Shown in pieces: positions 15,163 to 33,649 of a stretch of DNA of 64,000 bases. The stretch is from the human T2T-CHM13v2.0 reference genome, Homo sapiens. The first letter of the stretch is position 1. Every line of letters starts with the position of its first letter. The stretch is taken from the NCBI RefSeq assembly GCF_009914755.1, contig NC_060925.1; one strand, written 5' to 3'. The position numbers and the translations under genes were made by a program. Under the pieces are notes generated by a model. The model was not told the DNA's origin. It saw only the letters and a list, made by a program, of their open reading frames with translations, and made no database searches.

Positions 15163-15700
15163 CTACCTTCAGGGGTTCTCCGATGCACCCAACTGTCCTA
15201 TTGCATTGCCTACATTTCCTAGAATTGAGCTATTTAATCAATCCTTTTCTATTCTTTTTTTTTTTTTTTTGAGATAGAATGTTGCTCTGTTGCTGAGGCT
15301 GGAGTGCAGTAGTGCGATCTCACCTCACTAAAACCTCTGCCTCCTGGGTTCAAGCAATTCACCTGCCTCAGCCTCCAAGTAGCCGGGACTACAGGCACAC
15401 ACCACCACACCCTGCTAATTTTTTGTATTTTAGTAGAGATGGGGTTTCACCATGTTGCCCAGGCTGATCTCAAACTCCTGAGCTCAGGCAATCCACCCAC
15501 CTCGGTCTCCCAAAGTGCTAGGATCACAGGCGTGAGCCACCACGCCTGGCTGAATTCCTTTTTATAACTATTTAAGGATAATTTCCATGAGGACAGGGAG
15601 CCCACCTGCCTATGCACTACTGTATTTCCAATGCCTGGAACATATTAGGAACTCCATAAACATTTGCTCATGAATGAGTTCTTCCTCTGAAAAACAGTGA

Positions 15701-16767: not shown

Positions 16768-18497
16768 TTATGTATCAAGATACTCATTGATGTTAAAAAT
16801 ATTGATTGAACATTTAATCTGTGGCAGACGCTATATTAGGTTTTAGAAGCACAGCATTGAACAAGATAGATACACAATCCCTACCCTGATTGAGCTTCCA
16901 GGCTATCAAGACAATTATACAATTAATAAAGTGTGATGAGTAGTTACCATAGAAGTATTCTCAGGGATAGAGGTCTTCTGCCTGCACTTGAACAAGAGCA
17001 GCGCTATATTGATTATAATTTGGGACTCCAGGTAAGATTTTGTTTGTAAACCTGGCTTCACTACCATATAAAAGTTTGAATACTGCCATTTATTTATCTG
17101 AATTTCATCCTAACAGCCTATTATGTAAATGAATGGCCATTGCGTATATAGTTATAACTATATAAGCTTTTTTTTTTTAAATTGAGACAGAGTCTTCCTC
17201 TGTCACCCAGGCCGGAATGCAGTGGTTCAATCACGGCTCATTGCAGCCTTGACCTCCCAGGCTCAAGTCATCCTCCCATCTCAACTTCCCAAGTAGATGG
17301 GGACACAGGTGCACGCCACCACGTCCAGCTAATTTTTAAACTTTTTGTGGAGACGGGGTCTCTCTGTTTTGCCCAAGCTGGTCTCGAACTTGTGTGCTCA
17401 AGAAATCCTCCTCCCTTAGTCTCCCAAAGTGTTGGGATTATAGGTGTCAGCCACCATGCCCAGCCTTATAAGCCTTATCCTCATTTTATAGTTGAGAAAA
17501 TACAGTTAACAGAGTTAAAGAACAGAGTTAAAGTAACCCTTTTTTTTTTTTGAGATGGAGTCTCGCTCTGTCGCCCAGGCTGGAGTGCAGTGGCCTGATC
17601 TCGGCTCACTGCAAGCTCCGCCTCCTGGGTTCATGCCATTCTCCTGGCTCAGCCTCCCGGTAGCTGGGACTACAGGAGCCCACCACCACACCCGGCTAAT
17701 TTTTTGTATGTTTAGTAGGGACGGGGTTTCACCGTGTTAGCCAGGATGGTCTCGATCTCCTGACCTCGTGATCTGCCCCCCTCGGCCTCCCAAAGTGCTA
17801 GGATTACAGGCGTGAGCCACCGCACCCCGCCGCTAAAGTCTTACGACAATTAAATTGCAAAGCCTCATTCCAAATCTCTGCTCTCTATATCACACCACAG
17901 TGCCCACACCCAAAATGGAATAAATCTTATTTCCCCAGAAGAGAGATCTCTAGTTAAGAAGTACAAAGCTCTGCCTTAGCCTTATCCAATATCCATTTTT
18001 TTTTATGAAAGAGATATATAGCATGCTGATAAAAAACAAAAAACACACCATCATCTCAATCAACATGGAAAAAGCATTTGAAAAACTCCTTTATAAGGCC
18101 GGGCGCTTTGGCTCATGTCTGTAATCCTAGCACTTTGGGAGGCCGAGGCAGGCAGATCACCTGAGGTCAGGAGTTCAAGACCAGCCTGGCAGACAGGGTG
18201 AAACCCCGTCTCTACAAAAAATGCAAAAATTAGCTGAGCATGGTGGCCTGCGTCTGTGGTCCCAGTTACCGGGTGGCTGAGGCAGGAGAATCACTTGAAC
18301 CCAGGAGGGGAGGCAGAGATTGCAGTGAGCCGAGATCACACCACTGCCCTCCAGCCTGGGTGACAGAGGGAGACTCCGTCTCAAAACAAAAATCAAAAAA
18401 CAACTCCCTTTTGAGAAAAACCGTCAACGCCAGAAGGGAACTTCCTCAACCTGACAAGGGCATCTGTGAAAAATCTGCAGCTTAACCTCATATTTAA

Positions 18498-21454: not shown

Positions 21455-25949
<4,495 letters not shown>

Positions 25950-26296: not shown

Positions 26297-26829
26297 AGCT
26301 GCTTCCTCTGGTAGCCTGTGGTTCTCATTGGGAGCTGTTAACAGAGGGCAAGTGGGCTGAAACCTGAGGCACATGAACAGCTACGCCGGGTTGGGTTGGG
26401 AAAGAGTCGGAAATAGGGGATGCTCTGGTCAGGAGTGGGAATGAAATGTTGACTGTTCCCCCTGCTGCTCAGATCTACCTTTGTCCTTTAGTGGTGAGCC
26501 ATGCTTTGCCCTACCGTGTTAGCCTGCAAGAAGTGGTTTTGCCGGACCAGCACTTCCCGCCCTCCAGGGATCTTCCCAGCCCTCTGTGAAGTGCTAGATG
26601 CTTCTCCACTGGTCTGCGGGCTGGACCCAGGCCTGCAGTTTGCCATACTTGCGCCCCTGCTGTTTGGGAAGGATCTGTGCTGTAAGCCTCGCGGCCATAC
26701 TACGACTGTCAGATCTCCATCCCTATGGGCTATAGGATGGGGCGACGGCACCCTATACCTCAGGGACTTGCTTTGGAGTCATGGATTAAAGACCTCTCTG
26801 GGCAGCGTTGAGAACCAGCGACCCTAAAC

Positions 26830-27135
26830 TTGGCTGCGTTTCCATGGTGTCGATCGCGGAGCCGTGGGGGCGGGCTCACGCAAGCGCCAAGGGACCGGTG
26901 GGAGGAGTTCGGGTGTGGATGCGCAGGCGCTTTGAGAGACGGTGAAGCCGGTGGCCGGTGGCCGGGCGGGACCAACAAAGATGGCGGCGGCCCCTGCGGC
27001 GGGAGCGATCTGGGCAACGGCTGCGGCTAAAGCTGCAGCCGGGCCCACGGGGGGGCTGCACGGGGGTAGTAGGGGGTGGCCCTGAACTGGGGCCTGGCCC
27101 TGGCTGGCCTCTCCCGCCGCCTCACTGGGGGACAG
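26830..27135 (+). promoter_or_regulatory. USP21: USP21 CpG promoter and non-coding exon 1 (donor CAG|GTACGG at 27135/27136)
   Basis: CpG island, GC box GGGCGG, YY1 motif AAGATGGCGGC at 26978. TSS approximate. Confidence 0.75.
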
Positions 27136-27907
27136 GTACGGGCCGGGGCGTTATGGCATGGCGGGGTGTGGGGGGGCGCAGAGGGAAGACTGCTCCAGAC
27201 CCGAGAGGACACTCTCCACAAAGGCGCGTGGGGCCCGGCGGGGCCTGGGAGAACTGGGCTGGAGGGACAGCATCCCTGGACCGCGGGGAATACGCCGCCG
27301 GATTCCGTAGCCAATCAGCGGTCTCGGCCTTTCTGCCCTCGAGGGGGGCGGACCCGGCTAAAGCCCTGCTGTGGTGGGAGAAGTGCAGAGATTAAGGGTC
27401 AAGGAGTTGTTCGTCCTCCATCCCCGACTACTGCTTTCTGAACCTCGACACCATGTCGGAGGTCGGAGGTGGGGGAGGGAATGGATCGTAAGTCACCCAT
27501 ATAGTCTGCTTCATTTGCAGCCCAGAGAGGCAGGGATTCGAGGATGGAGGGCTGTCTTTTGGGCTGTTATTCTTGCATCTACACTACCATTTGGCTAGGG
27601 TCTTAAGTGACCCGAGGCACATCCTACTTTACTAGCCGGGTATGGGGTCCCATGTTACGTTAGAGCCGAGATAGGAGTTATCACTGGCTTTTCAGTAAAG
27701 ATGTGTTCTGCAGGGAGGGGTCGGGAGTATAGAAAGGGTCAAAGCCATGGGCTGCTTATCTTTCATTCATTTGTTTACCCAATAGATACTAAGTATTTAC
27801 TTTGTACCAAACACGATGCCAGGTACTGGGGATACGATGGCTGATTCGATAGATCTGGTTCCTGCCCTCAGTGCGTATACTGCTCCCCACTTTCGTTGAT
27901 GTGGTAG

Positions 27908-27963
27908 TGGTGATGACTGAGCCAACCACCTAATGTGGAAATGAGAGGACAGCAAGATTGTGG
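27908..27963 (+). other. USP21: Optional 5'-UTR exon derived by duplication of USP21 coding exon 31012-31076
   Basis: TAG|TGGTGATG...ATTGTGG|GTATGG. 27881-28002 aligns with 30983-31115. Confidence 0.6.
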
Positions 27964-28097
27964 GTATGGAATGGGGCAAAGCAATAAGGGAAAATTAGTG
28001 TGGCAGGGTTCAGTACAGCAGCCTGGGTTCCCATTTCCCCCCATATTCAAATGCTGACACTCTCTTCTCCTCCCAGGTCCAGCCTGTGGTGTCCACA

Positions 28098-31000
28098 ATG
28101 CCCCAGGCCTCTGAGCACCGCCTGGGCCGTACCCGAGAGCCACCTGTTAATATCCAGCCCCGAGTGGGATCCAAGCTACCATTTGCCCCCAGGGCCCGCA
28201 GCAAGGAGCGCAGAAACCCAGCCTCTGGGCCAAACCCCATGTTACGACCTCTGCCTCCCCGGCCAGGTCTGCCTGATGAACGGCTCAAGAAACTGGAGCT
28301 GGGACGGGGACGGACCTCAGGCCCTCGTCCCAGAGGCCCCCTTCGAGCAGATCATGGGGTTCCCCTGCCTGGCTCACCACCCCCAACAGTGGCTTTGCCT
28401 CTCCCATCTCGGACCAACTTAGCCCGTTCCAAGTCTGTGAGCAGTGGGGACTTGCGTCCAATGGGGATTGCCTTGGGAGGGCACCGTGGCACCGGAGAGC
28501 TTGGGGCTGCACTGAGCCGCTTGGCCCTCCGGCCTGAGCCACCCACTTTGAGACGTAGCACTTCTCTCCGCCGCCTAGGGGGCTTTCCTGGACCCCCTAC
28601 CCTGTTCAGCATACGGACAGAGCCCCCTGCTTCCCATGGCTCCTTCCACATGATATCCGCCCGGTCCTCTGAGCCTTTCTACTCTGATGACAAGATGGTG
28701 AGGACTTGCCACACACATGGCCTTCATGCCCATGTTCCTCTGTGCTTTCCTGCCATCCTCTGCCTTTTCTGTCCCCCATTTCCCTGAAGTTCCTTTCTCA
28801 GCCCTTCATTACAGCAGTTTGGACATGCCTCTCCCTTGCTTAAATACCCTTGAGCCTCCTAGACCCTTTTTTGGGTTGTTGGTGACTCTTCAGCATGGTG
28901 TGCCATTTCGGTCCCCAGGGGATTACCCCAACTATTTAGAATTCTTCTTTGGGTCCCCAGGCCCTTCCTTTCCCTTGCTTGCACCTTCTCTACTGGGACT
29001 CTGCCTAGGCCTAATTAATCTCTGGAGCTAAAGAGAGGCAGGCACAGAACATCTTAGCAAACGTGGTTGCACATTTTCTGAGCTAAGTAAGCTAGGCTGA
29101 TTGCAATTGGAGCCAGCAGGAGAAGGGCAAGAAGGGGCCACGGGGGCAGGAGGGGGTTTTGGGGGCAGAAAGGTGGGAGTGGTGAGCAGCTGGGCAACCA
29201 TGCCGGTGCTGGGGGAGTTGCCCCAGGAGCTGCAACGTCAGCTAGCTGAGCAGAGGAGTAAGTGGGCAACAGGTGGGACAGCCATGGCTGAGTCCGTGGT
29301 ACATTCAGCTGTGATGGGCTTACTGCTCATGACCAGTGAGGTAGGGAGACTAGAATACCTAGTGAGGGGAATAGGGTAGAGTTTGGGGATGAAACATGCA
29401 TGGGATGGGGGAGGCAGTGGGCAGCATGCTGTTGAAAGGTTAAAGTGCCAGGTAGGATATATAGGAACTTGCCGATTGTACTCTGACCTTCCAGGCTCAT
29501 CACACACTCCTTCTGGGCTCTGGTCATGTTGGCCTTCGAAACCTGGGAAACACGGTGAGAGCTATTCTCCTATCTTTCCTCTCTAAAAGGAATGTGAAAT
29601 GGTGCTGGGGGTGGGGAAAACCCACGAGCTTGGGGAAGGCATGTGGAAGGAGAGCTCTGAAGCTCTTCTAAGGCTTCCTGGGCAGTGGTCTGGAGAGATA
29701 ACAGCAGTGTCCCTACTGCTCCCCAGTGCTTCCTGAATGCTGTGCTGCAGTGTCTGAGCAGCACTCGACCTCTTCGGGACTTCTGTCTGAGAAGGGACTT
29801 CCGGCAAGAGGTGCCTGGAGGAGGCCGAGCCCAAGAGCTCACTGAAGGTGGGGCAACAACTCCTGCTCCCTCTGTTCAAGTCCCTTTTTCCCCAACCACT
29901 TGCAGGTCCATCTGCCACTGGTGGTGGCCCCCAACCCTTAAATCTGGCAGTTGTATCTACTTTTCCCAGTGCCTACTTTCCTAAAGGTTATTTTCTACCC
30001 TCTGAGCCACCTTTTGCTTGCCTCTTCCAGACATTAACCTTTGTTTGCCTTCCCCACTCCCATCCCAACAGCCTTTGCAGATGTGATTGGTGCCCTCTGG
30101 CACCCTGACTCCTGCGAAGCTGTGAATCCTACTCGATTCCGAGCTGTCTTCCAGAAATATGTTCCCTCCTTCTCTGGATACAGGTGGGAGAGCTGGAGGC
30201 TATGGGATTTCTCTCTGGCCATGTCTGGGGGTAGGGCCAAGCAAGGGCCCTGGCAGCATTGTTCTGAGCCTTGAGATGTTCTTCATCCAGGAAGTGGGGA
30301 CCAATATCTGGGCAGGGAATAGTGTCTGTGGACTAGGAGAGGAGTCAGTTGCCCATACTCTTTGTCTGGCTGTAGCCAGCAGGATGCCCAAGAGTTCCTG
30401 AAGCTCCTCATGGAGCGGCTACACCTTGAAATCAACCGCCGAGGCCGCCGGGCTCCACCGATACTTGCCAATGGTCCAGTTCCCTCTCCACCCCGCCGAG
30501 GAGGGGCTCTGCTAGAAGAACCTGAGTTAAGGTAAGGGTCGTTCCCTCTACCTCCTTTCCCCGTAGTTTATCAGCATCATTCACACTTCATAGAACTAAA
30601 CTAGTAAAGATTGAAGATGTAGGGTCCAGGGAAACCCTTTAGTATAGAAAATAGTATGAGAAGCAACATAGAAGTAGAAGGAAGGAAGGAAGAGGGGGAG
30701 TCTAAGGGAGCAGATGGAGGCAGAAGATCATGCTAGGGATGTCACCAAATTGAAGAAGGGGATAATTCATTTACAGGTAGAGGAAGACAGCATATTCTTC
30801 CCTTATGTACATTCCTTTCTTTTCCTCTCACCTCGGATTTCCCTAGAAAGTTCATTGAGGCATTATTCTTTTGACTTTTCCTTGAAATTTAGGGAAGGAG
30901 CAGGGGTGTGGATGGGGAGTAGGGCTCTGTAGGTTGTTTCAGTGGGTGTTGGGGGTGCCCAGTGTTCCTGCTGTCTCATGGGTGCTCCCCACTTCCTTTG

Positions 31001-32904
31001 ATCTGTGGTAGTGATGATGACCGAGCCAACCTAATGTGGAAACGTTACCTGGAGCGAGAGGACAGCAAGATTGTGGGTATGGAATGGGGCAAAGCAATGA
31101 GGGAAAATTAGTGTGTGAGGGGGGTACAGGCTTGGGGGGAAAAATCGATACTATCAAGGGGTATGGGAACAAGACTGGATGATGCAAATGTGAAGCTGTG
31201 TGAAGAGTTGATTAGGAGTGTTGGTAGTGGGAAAGGAAGGGTCAAGCAAAGGGGCAGGAAGAGATGGAAATCCAAGAAATCATCTCATAACATCCAACAA
31301 TGACCTTTTCTCCTGTCCCTGTGCTTCTGTCTAGACCTGTTTGTGGGCCAGTTGAAAAGTTGTCTCAAGTGCCAGGCCTGTGGGTATCGCTCCACGACCT
31401 TCGAGGTTTTTTGTGACCTGTCCCTGCCCATCCCCAAGGTGGGATTCCAGAGGATTCCGGGGTGGACAGGACAGGGGCTCTGTGACCCAAGCCTACCCAC
31501 CCCCAGAGTGTGGGCGGGAACCCTGTGGGTTTCTGGAGCAGAACTGAAGCCTGGATTGATTGAGAAGAGTTGGAAAAGGAAATTCAGAACATGTTGACCT
31601 TTCTTCCCCTTTTCCCCCAGAAAGGATTTGCTGGGGGCAAGGTGTCTCTGCGGGATTGTTTCAACCTTTTCACTAAGGAAGAAGAGCTAGAGTCGGAGAA
31701 TGCCCCAGTATGTGGAGGTTCACAAGGGATACAGTAAGGGTGGGAGACCTGGGGGGACTCCATGTGGATAAAAGGGATTGCATGATGTCTTCATATGGGG
31801 AATAATATTTATGTATCTGGGTTTGTGTTGGAGTCTCAGATCTGTTCTAGTACTCCTAGAGCAAAGGGGAGAAGCCAAGAGGATCCAGCTGTAATGAAGA
31901 GCATACTAAATTTGTATGTGGATCGGGGTGTCAGAAAAGCCAATTGAGGTTAGGAGCATATTAACCTAACACTGTTTGCCATTTATTCAGGTGTGTGACC
32001 GATGTCGGCAGAAAACTCGAAGTACCAAAAAGTTGACAGTACAAAGATTCCCTCGAATCCTCGTGCTCCATATCCTAATCTTCAGATTCTTACTTCTCTT
32101 AGGATACCTCCCATACATTCTCTTTCCTCCATGTTTCCAGAGAATTGAATTTTCCTTAGGAAAAGTCTGCCACCCACTTTTCCACAAGATGCTCCCAGTG
32201 TGTCGGGAGTGGGGAGAGGACAGCTTTCAGGATAGAAGAAGTTCCCCTCAGAGGCCCACTGCCTCCCAAATGCTCCTTAACCAGGGCTTAGATCTGAATC
32301 GATTTTCTGCCTCCCGAGGCTCCATCAAAAAAAGTTCAGTAGGTGTAGACTTTCCACTGCAGCGACTGAGCCTAGGGGACTTTGCCAGTGACAAAGCCGG
32401 TGAGTCTGGTGGGGAAAGTCCTAAGGAGCCAAAGGAGTGGGGGCACAGCTCTGATTATAGAACTTGATCATCTCCAACCCCGCAGGAAGTCCTGTATACC
32501 AGCTGTATGCCCTTTGCAACCACTCAGGCAGCGTCCACTATGGCCACTACACAGCCCTGTGCCGGTGCCAGACTGGTTGGCATGTCTACAATGACTCTCG
32601 GTGAGAATAGCCTCCTATTTACATCCTGCCCCATTCCCACTCAGCCCTGACACCCTCCCCTTCTATGAAGCTCCAGGAGAGCAGAGTGCCAGGTGAAAGG
32701 AGAGGTGGAGGTCTTGCCTGATCATTTCCTGGATGCTCTGAGGTTCGGTCTTGTAGGGAGAAGGGAGTAAACAGGAATGACCACAACCCTTTCCCGATCT
32801 CCTTTTTTCCTAGTGTCTCCCCTGTCAGTGAAAACCAGGTGGCATCCAGCGAGGGCTACGTGCTGTTCTACCAACTGATGCAGGAGCCACCCCGGTGCCT
32901 GTGA
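28098..32904 (+). CDS. USP21: Ubiquitin-specific protease 21, 565 aa
   Basis: Coding exons 28098-28697, 29495-29554, 29727-29847, 30072-30183, 30376-30531, 31012-31076, 31335-31438, 31621-31707, 31991-32069, 32292-32399, 32486-32600, 32814-32904 (1698 nt). Cys box [20 protein letters not shown], His box HYGHY, WHVYNDS. Confidence 0.98.
29200..29340 (+). CDS. USP21: Candidate alternative first coding exon of USP21 (USP2b-like N-terminus, 47 aa)
   Basis: ACCATG start, 141 nt with no stop, GAG|GTAGGG phase-0 donor matching the phase-0 acceptor at 29495. Motif SAVMGLLL resembles recalled USP2b STFVGLLL. Confidence 0.55.
32070..32291 (+). other. USP21: U12-type (minor spliceosome) intron with AT-AG termini
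   Basis: 5' ATATCCTAA, branch TCCTTAAC at 32274-32281, 3' TTAG. These boundaries give ILVL-H-LNRF and the 565-aa length. Confidence 0.9.
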
Positions 32905-33159
32905 CACCTCTAAGCTCTGGCACCTGTGAAGCCCTTTAAACACCCTTAAGCCCCAGGCTCCCCGTTTACCTCAGAGACGTCTATTTTTGTGTCTTTTTAA
33001 TCGGGGAGGGGGGAGGGGGTGGTTGTAGCTCCATTATTTTTTTTATTAAAAAATACCCTTCCACCTGGAGGCTCCCTTGTCTCCCAGCCCCATGTACAAA
33101 GCTCACCAAGCCCCTGCCCATGTACAGCCCCCAGACCCTCTGCAATATCACTTTTTGTG

Positions 33160-33165
33160 AATAAA
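33160..33165 (+). terminator. USP21: USP21 polyadenylation signal AATAAA
   Basis: AATAAA with two upstream TGTA elements and downstream T/GT-rich sequence. Confidence 0.8.
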
Positions 33166-33649
33166 TTTATTAAGAAAAAATGATGTGCTTATTTGTATTT
33201 TTGCTTAGGGGGTGATAGAGAACTGGGCCAAATTGGAGTCTTCTTGGGACCCAAGTTCCCTCTCTAACAGGTGGGGGCGCTCTCAGAGCCGAGGGGGAAG
33301 GTTTCGGGGATGGTGCTGGACCCGGACCTGTGTCCCCCAGCAGTGAAGGTTATGTACTGGGAGGAAAAGAGGAAAGGCATACTTGAGTGAGGCTGCGTGC
33401 AGGCTCTGGGGCGACTGGTTTGGTCGGCGATGGGGGAGTGCCACTGTTGACAAACACTGGGTACGTTGCCGGGCGGCCCTAGCTCCCGTAGGCCCGGTCT
33501 GTTGCTAACATCAAGGAGCTGTTTATGGAGCCGCCTCCCCGTGGACTGGCCTTAAGTGTCCCTATCTATTCTCCCTACGACCAAAGCTCCTGCGGCCTTC
33601 CCTCTAGGGTTGTCACCCTAGCTGGACCTGGTAAGCTTGTGCTGGGGAA

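What the first reader, a model, noticed from the sequence alone, without database searches (positions are those of the whole stretch)
27881..28002. Intragenic duplicate of a USP21 coding exon placed in the 5'-UTR intron
27881-28002 aligns with 30983-31115 (exon [21 protein letters not shown] plus both intronic flanks). It includes a 43-bp identical block (gagaggacagcaagattgtgggtatggaatggggcaaagcaat) and +3/-12 indels. Both splice sites survive (TAG|...|GTATGG), giving a 56-nt exon 3.1 kb upstream of its source. Copied intron flanks mean a DNA-level or pre-mRNA-templated event, not mRNA retroposition. This is a case of a gene creating a UTR exon from its own coding exon.
Basis: seen in the sequence. 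Interest (0 to 1): 0.7.

Follow-up and report, generated by a model that had tools for sequence, protein, structure and literature searches.

The report
Self-copied patch creates USP21 leader exon
A 128-base piece of the human USP21 gene, copied from one of its own protein-coding exons into its first intron and missing at that spot in hoofed-mammal records, supplies the splice signal that ends a new non-coding exon in the gene's reference transcript, and that exon may lower how much USP21 protein is made.

Summary
The duplicate is real: 27881-28008 copies USP21 coding exon 8 with both intron flanks (30983-31121). Score is 161 against at most 39 in 300 shuffles, with 6 substitutions in 119 columns, and only these two copies were found in the genome. 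RefSeq exon 2 (27823-27963) is a chimera: its acceptor lies in an old L2-type repeat fragment (27762-27880), and only its donor (27963) comes from the copy. No listed exon starts at the copied acceptor (27908). Three unnamed records (two firmly, one weakly placed as ruminant-like) and, more weakly, one carnivore-like record read straight from the left flank into the right flank. The copy is therefore a clean ~128-bp insertion on the human lineage, likely in primates. No target-site duplication or poly(A) was found, which fits templated double-strand-break patching (inferred). The exon adds five upstream ATGs, one opening a 122-codon frame across the main start. That predicts translational dampening, but two Ribo-seq tables list only the exon-1 uORF. 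This is a well-supported case of exon birth with unproven function, and a new variant of known mechanisms.

The parts
27881..28008 (+). Inserted copy (~128 bp) of USP21 exon 8 plus both intron flanks; carries -2, +3 and -12 indels and two CGA->TGA stops in the old reading frame
   Evidence: empty site in outgroup records
30983..31121 (+). Template: 29 nt of intron 7, coding exon 8 (31012-31076), 45 nt of intron 8
   Evidence: gene table; peptide conserved in USP21 and USP2
27762..27880 (+). Old dispersed-repeat fragment (L2-type 3' end; family name recalled, no repeat library here); supplies acceptors 27786 and 27823; ends where the copy starts
   Evidence: profile of 29 genomic copies hits 27762-27835 at E 1.2e-9; 16 of 23 matches to the profile consensus over 27858-27880; partly present in ruminant-like records
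27823..27963 (+). RefSeq 5'-UTR exon 2 (141 nt): 58 nt of repeat plus 83 nt of copy
   Evidence: hub gene table (NM_001014443.3)
27961..27969 (+). Copied splice donor, identical to the exon-8 donor; used by three listed exon forms
   Evidence: crude PWM 5.5 against at most 1.3 for any GT left downstream of 27823 in the reconstructed empty site
27906..27907 (+). Copied acceptor AG; intact, but no listed exon starts here
   Evidence: gene table; PWM -1.2 against -0.9 for the source acceptor
27837..27899 (+). 20-codon uORF starting in the repeat part of exon 2
   Evidence: not in Ribo-seq tables
27941..28422 (+). Spliced (27963->28077) 122-codon out-of-frame ORF overlapping the main start; its ATG is new (12-nt deletion plus CpG transition)
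   Evidence: translation not shown
28009..28076 (+). Ancestral right flank (3' end of intron 1), contiguous with the left flank in outgroup records

Best explanation
A ~128-bp copy of USP21 coding exon 8 with its intron flanks sits in intron 1 at a site that is empty in ruminant-like records, likely inserted once in a primate ancestor as a templated patch at a DNA break, and its copied donor pairs with an acceptor in an adjacent old repeat to make the annotated 141-nt 5'-UTR exon 2, which is predicted to dampen translation through five added upstream ATGs. Shown: the copy, its direction, the empty site, the repeat origin of the acceptors, annotated use of the copied donor only, and the five ATGs. 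Inferred: break repair as the mechanism (no target duplication, no poly(A), no net loss of host sequence, weak flank likeness), a primate date, and that the donor was the missing piece. The translational effect is least certain (about 0.4) and may be small or neutral.
For: Alignment and shuffles. Two copies only. Direction. Repeat boundary at 27880. Empty site: a 9-residue stretch of P0071 has its best match among 127,944 window positions at 27853-27879 (score 36, next 24) and is followed directly by sequence matching 28008-28076. For P0071, P0082 and P0081 the best join is at 27879|28008, needing 15, 15 and 12 base changes against 31, 31 and 27 without the join. P0081 and P0082 differ from muntjac at 1 of 200 residues and from human at 11; P0083 (1 of 199 from lynx) has 108 nt where human has 240. 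Copy-source divergence (5%) is below the human-outgroup minimum in the same intron (12-15 of 96 bases). A mouse paper calls the first coding exon 'exon 2' (PMC12525000, passages). No good donor remains in the empty site. uATG inventory.
Against: No primate or rodent DNA could be read, so the date is only bracketed. The outgroup evidence is ORF translations, mostly from one clade. Junction homeology is marginal (P 0.047 left, 0.079 right, Fisher 0.024, scoring chosen after looking), and a test for the repeat continuing across the right junction failed (P 0.26). The 20- and 122-codon ORFs are long enough for the GENCODE phase I catalog (over 15 aa), yet USP21's only row is the exon-1 uORF. A second Ribo-seq study also shows only that uORF (files 13-17 of 17 not searched). 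0 of 11 database matches to the alternative frame begin with the exon-2 part. The exon is in the selected transcript, which sits poorly with strong repression or decay. The crude PWM does not explain why 27823 (-2.4) is used over 27908 (-1.2).
Confidence: 0.7

Rival explanations
1. Same origin, but the exon is functionally neutral: a tolerated young cassette exon whose ATGs are mostly bypassed because the strong exon-1 uORF already controls initiation.
For: Only the exon-1 uORF is seen in two Ribo-seq tables. The copy has decayed freely (6 substitutions, 3 indels).
Against: The donor and 22 intronic bases are unchanged (with so few substitutions this is not a test of selection). The exon is in the selected transcript, and ATG 27941 has a purine at -3.
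Confidence: 0.45
2. The insertion was reverse-transcribed from USP21 pre-mRNA (endonuclease-independent L1 machinery or another RT) rather than copied from DNA.
For: PMC5110952 (parts 1-2 of 4 read) argues class 2 templated insertions are often RNA-templated, include intronic donors and lack TSD and poly(A). The copy is in sense orientation and comes from the gene's own nascent transcript region.
Against: Sequence alone cannot separate the two routes. A template only 3.1 kb away in cis suits DNA strand invasion or template switching equally well.
Confidence: 0.3
3. An ancient duplication kept similar by gene conversion and deleted in laurasiatherians.
For: A 43-bp identical core and weak likeness beyond both ends.
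Against: It needs a deletion removing just the copied segment. The flank likeness lies in host sequence that is present in outgroup records, and the left flank fits the repeat better (16 of 23) than the source intron (6 of 23 ungapped).
Confidence: 0.07
4. One reading: a 56-nt exon using both copied splice sites.
For: Both dinucleotides are intact; the copied acceptor scores about like its source.
Against: No exon in the hub table for the 12 RefSeq transcripts starts at 27908.
Confidence: 0.1

Closest known systems
Class 2 templated sequence insertions (Onozawa and Aplan, PMC5110952; parts 1-2 of 4 read)
   Same: Size within the reported 73-414 bp, donor intact, no TSD, no poly(A), intronic sequence copied, clean junctions.
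   Different: Donor is 3.1 kb away in the same gene rather than distant; it has diverged 5% and is probably fixed; it creates an exon.
Intragenic/tandem exon duplications, including UTR targets (Ivanov and Pervouchine, PMC9013439; parts 1-2 of 4 read plus term search)
   Same: An exon has a homologue inside its own gene; the paper notes such copies are frequent in UTRs.
   Different: Not adjacent (five exons lie between), not mutually exclusive, coding to non-coding, only the donor reused. USP21 is not named in the main text (0 hits); its online tables were not seen.
Exonization of transposable elements into 5'-UTR cassette exons (general knowledge; PMC3303729 passage that recent primate exons favour 5' UTRs)
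   Same: An old repeat supplies the acceptor; a young 5'-UTR exon adds uATGs.
   Different: The missing donor arrived ready-made by copying from the gene's own coding exon rather than by point mutation.

Membership tests
Class 2 templated sequence insertion | Insertion relative to an empty ancestral site, with donor intact | tested here: met
Class 2 templated sequence insertion | No target-site duplication, no poly(A) tail | tested here: met
   longest word shared by 40-nt flanks is 6 nt and not at the junctions; no A-tract
Class 2 templated sequence insertion | End-joining marks (microhomology, microdeletion, untemplated bases) | tested here: inconclusive
   marginal homeology, one failed test
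Class 2 templated sequence insertion | Template from a distant region | tested here: not met
   template 3.1 kb away in the same gene; works like a class 2 insertion but is not filed as a TSIP
Class 2 templated sequence insertion | Polymorphic in humans | not testable with these tools
   no population data
Class 1 insertion / L1 retrocopy / processed pseudogene | TSD, poly(A), spliced junctions | tested here: not met
Tandem (mutually exclusive) exon duplication | Copy adjacent to source and spliced as an alternative to it | tested here: not met
   exons 3-7 lie between; both are in NM_001014443.3 (gene table)
TE-derived exon | Splice site inside a dispersed repeat | tested here: met
   acceptors 27786 and 27823 fall within the profile hit 27762-27835
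TE-derived exon | Repeat family is L2 | not testable with these tools
   name recalled from the sequence pattern; no repeat library available
Repressive uORF/uoORF exon | Upstream ATGs and an overlapping out-of-frame ORF present | tested here: met
Repressive uORF/uoORF exon | These ORFs are translated and lower main-ORF output | tested here: inconclusive
   absent from two Ribo-seq tables; expanded catalog unreadable

The most novel reading that the evidence does not exclude
A break-repair patch copied from the gene's own coding exon handed a dormant L2 acceptor its missing donor. This gave primates a dominant USP21 leader isoform whose new overlapping ORF and decay sensitivity act as a splicing-controlled switch on USP21 dosage, a general route to exon birth by self-templated splice-site donation.
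Probability: 0.2. Interest if true: 0.65.

Novelty: new variant of a known kind. Interest (0 to 1): 0.42.

Why it matters
It is an unusually fully traceable exon birth: template, target, empty ancestral site and the origin of each splice site can all be pointed to, in the reference transcript of a studied deubiquitinase. It shows a short local templated insertion supplying a ready-made splice donor, a route separate from tandem duplication and from point-mutation exonization. It implies human and mouse USP21 leaders differ, which matters for mouse models if the exon changes output. Practically, the last 21 nt of exon 2 equal the last 21 nt of exon 8, so the normal exon 2-3 junction mimics an exon 8-3 back-splice. 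Short-anchor circRNA or exon-skipping calls at USP21 could therefore be false; no circUSP21 paper turned up.

Tried and rejected
(1) A rat N-terminal extension (P0011) seemed to match the right junction, but it maps to the promoter region 26598-26730; rejected as chance. (2) The repeat continuing across the right junction with microhomology: 14% of USP21 windows score as well, and the empty-site test gave P 0.26 of 300; not supported. (3) The copy extending to about 28027 (P 0.01-0.04): outgroup records show this is host sequence. (4) The first repeat profile was contaminated by Alu and was rebuilt from trimmed copies without L005, which duplicates the locus found with the window query. (5) Coding use of the copy: two stops in the old frame, and out of frame with the main ORF. 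Skipping from the copied donor to exon 9 gives only a 34-codon ORF. (6) Rfam over 26900-31400: one sub-threshold hit (23 bits, gathering 64). (7) Literature: searches gave no paper describing this exon's origin (mostly listings only; non-open papers not covered). The supplement of PMC11057154 has 0 hits in 3 files; supplements of PMC13010147 and PMC11404449 could not be read and may bear on translation and decay. PMC7615360 passages added only general support for template switching. (8) P0080 (human-identical, unrelated upstream part) and P0084 (rodent-like, does not read through the intron) were uninformative and left out of the empty-site count: 4 of the 6 records bear on it.

Full report
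Observation. Self-comparison of the USP21 region gives one strong non-trivial match, 27881-28008 with 30983-31121. It scores 161 against a maximum of 39 in 300 dinucleotide shuffles. The copy has three indels (-2, +3, -12) and 6 substitutions in 119 columns to 28002, two of them CpG transitions that put stops into the old reading frame. The 43-bp block is 21 exonic plus 22 intronic bases. A whole-genome DNA search returned 3 of 3 candidates: self, source, and a chr3 repeat matching only the left flank. That tool warns that its counts are lower bounds.

Direction. The exon-8 peptide matches 10 solved-structure sequences, 3 USP21 and 7 USP2, and the motif is in 56 of 68 USP21 relatives from mammals to amphibians. 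So 31012-31076 is the source.

What is spliced. In the hub's RefSeq table three exon forms end at the copied donor 27963 (27823-, 27786- and 27177-27963, the last without an upstream AG and so a first exon). None starts at the copied acceptor 27908. The stretch upstream of the copy is a dispersed repeat. The chr3 hit retrieves 40 of 40 scored matches among 121 candidates. A profile of 29 such copies hits 27762-27835 at E 1.2e-9, and its consensus matches 16 of 23 bases up to 27880, the base before the copy. I recognise it as an L2 3' end from memory; no repeat library was available. Both annotated acceptors lie inside it. A crude matrix from 40 donors in the window scores the copied donor 5.5 and the best GT in the reconstructed empty site 1.3, so the copy plausibly supplied the missing donor (inferred). 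The same kind of matrix (42 acceptors) does not explain the acceptor choice: 27823 scores -2.4, 27908 scores -1.2, 27786 scores 7.9.

Ancestral state. No mammalian DNA collection was available, but database ORFs that read through the intron gave a proxy. P0071 begins with nine residues whose best match among 127,944 window positions is 27853-27879 (36 against 24), followed directly by residues matching 28008-28076. A targeted search gave 6 of 6 candidates, of which 4 bear on the site. For P0071, P0082 and P0081 the best join is 27879|28008, with 15, 15 and 12 minimal base changes against 31, 31 and 27 without it. That is 128 bases missing, the length of the copy found independently. P0081 and P0082 are ruminant-like (1 of 200 differences from muntjac, 11 from human). 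P0071 is only weakly placed (0 of 96 conflicts with muntjac, 1 with horse, gibbon and fox, 2 with human) but resembles P0082 over the intron. P0083 is carnivore-like and has 108 nt where human has 240, though its left match is weak. The mouse literature numbers the first coding exon as exon 2 (PMC12525000, passages), which fits absence of the exon in mouse. With assumed rates of 1.0-2.2e-9 per site per year (recalled), 5% gives point ages of 12-52 Myr and 4-106 Myr across the interval. The insertion is probably primate, but this is not shown.

Mechanism. There is no target-site duplication, poly(A) or spliced junction and no net loss of host sequence. This matches the description of class 2 templated insertions, attributed to break repair (PMC5110952), except that the template is local. 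Host flanks resemble the source flanks only marginally (P 0.047 and 0.079 over 2050 positions), and a further microhomology test failed. DNA versus pre-mRNA template cannot be decided.

Function. Inclusion lengthens the leader from 200 to 341 nt and adds five ATGs: one from the repeat (20 codons), two inherited from exon 8, and two made by the copy's own decay. ATG 27941 opens 122 codons out of frame across the main start and stops 275 nt before the next junction. By the usual scanning and decay rules this predicts less protein. Against this, the GENCODE phase I table (7,264 ORFs over 15 aa; PMC10032668, supplement row and passages) and a second study (PMC12391379, supplements, 12 of 17 files searched) list only the exon-1 uORF. 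Inclusion also moves that uORF's stop from 71 to 212 nt before the main start, which could aid reinitiation. Function is unproven; I put dampening at about 0.4.

Comparison and verdict. Intragenic exon copies in UTRs are a described class (PMC9013439; USP21 not in its main text; its online tables were not seen), as are TE exonization and templated insertions. The exon itself is annotated. Its two-part origin was not found in the searches. This is a real, well-resolved exon birth that combines known mechanisms in an uncommon way: new variant of a known kind, interest 0.42.

Noticed in passing
window 26981-27085: 34-codon uORF in USP21 exon 1; listed as translated in two Ribo-seq tables and classed 'primatomorpha - young'.
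   Followed up: partly
window 28078-28422: The +1 frame of exon 3 is stop-free for 114 codons in human, and 11 database ORFs match it; 7 of them are 90-aa ORFs starting at a Met where human has Ile. It may be a side effect of codon use or an internal ORF of other mammals.
   Followed up: partly
window 27158-27223: Alternative first exon ending at a GC donor; gives an in-frame 29-residue N-terminal extension in a predicted human isoform (P0001).
   Followed up: no
window 27820-27828: The exon-2 acceptor is directly followed by a donor-like sequence (PWM 5.4), as in recursive splice sites; with acceptor 27786 it could also define a 37-nt exon.
   Followed up: no
window 21455-25668 and 28077 onward: Predicted UFC1-USP21 fusion proteins in vole, grey whale and camel records (P0006, P0009, P0035): read-through or gene-model artefact.
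   Followed up: no
window 33147-33185: The USP21 3' end abuts the most upstream PPOX start (33180/33185), with an imperfect palindrome over the poly(A) signal.
   Followed up: no
window 16784-16906 and 15565-15677: Further fragments of the same L2-type repeat.
   Followed up: no
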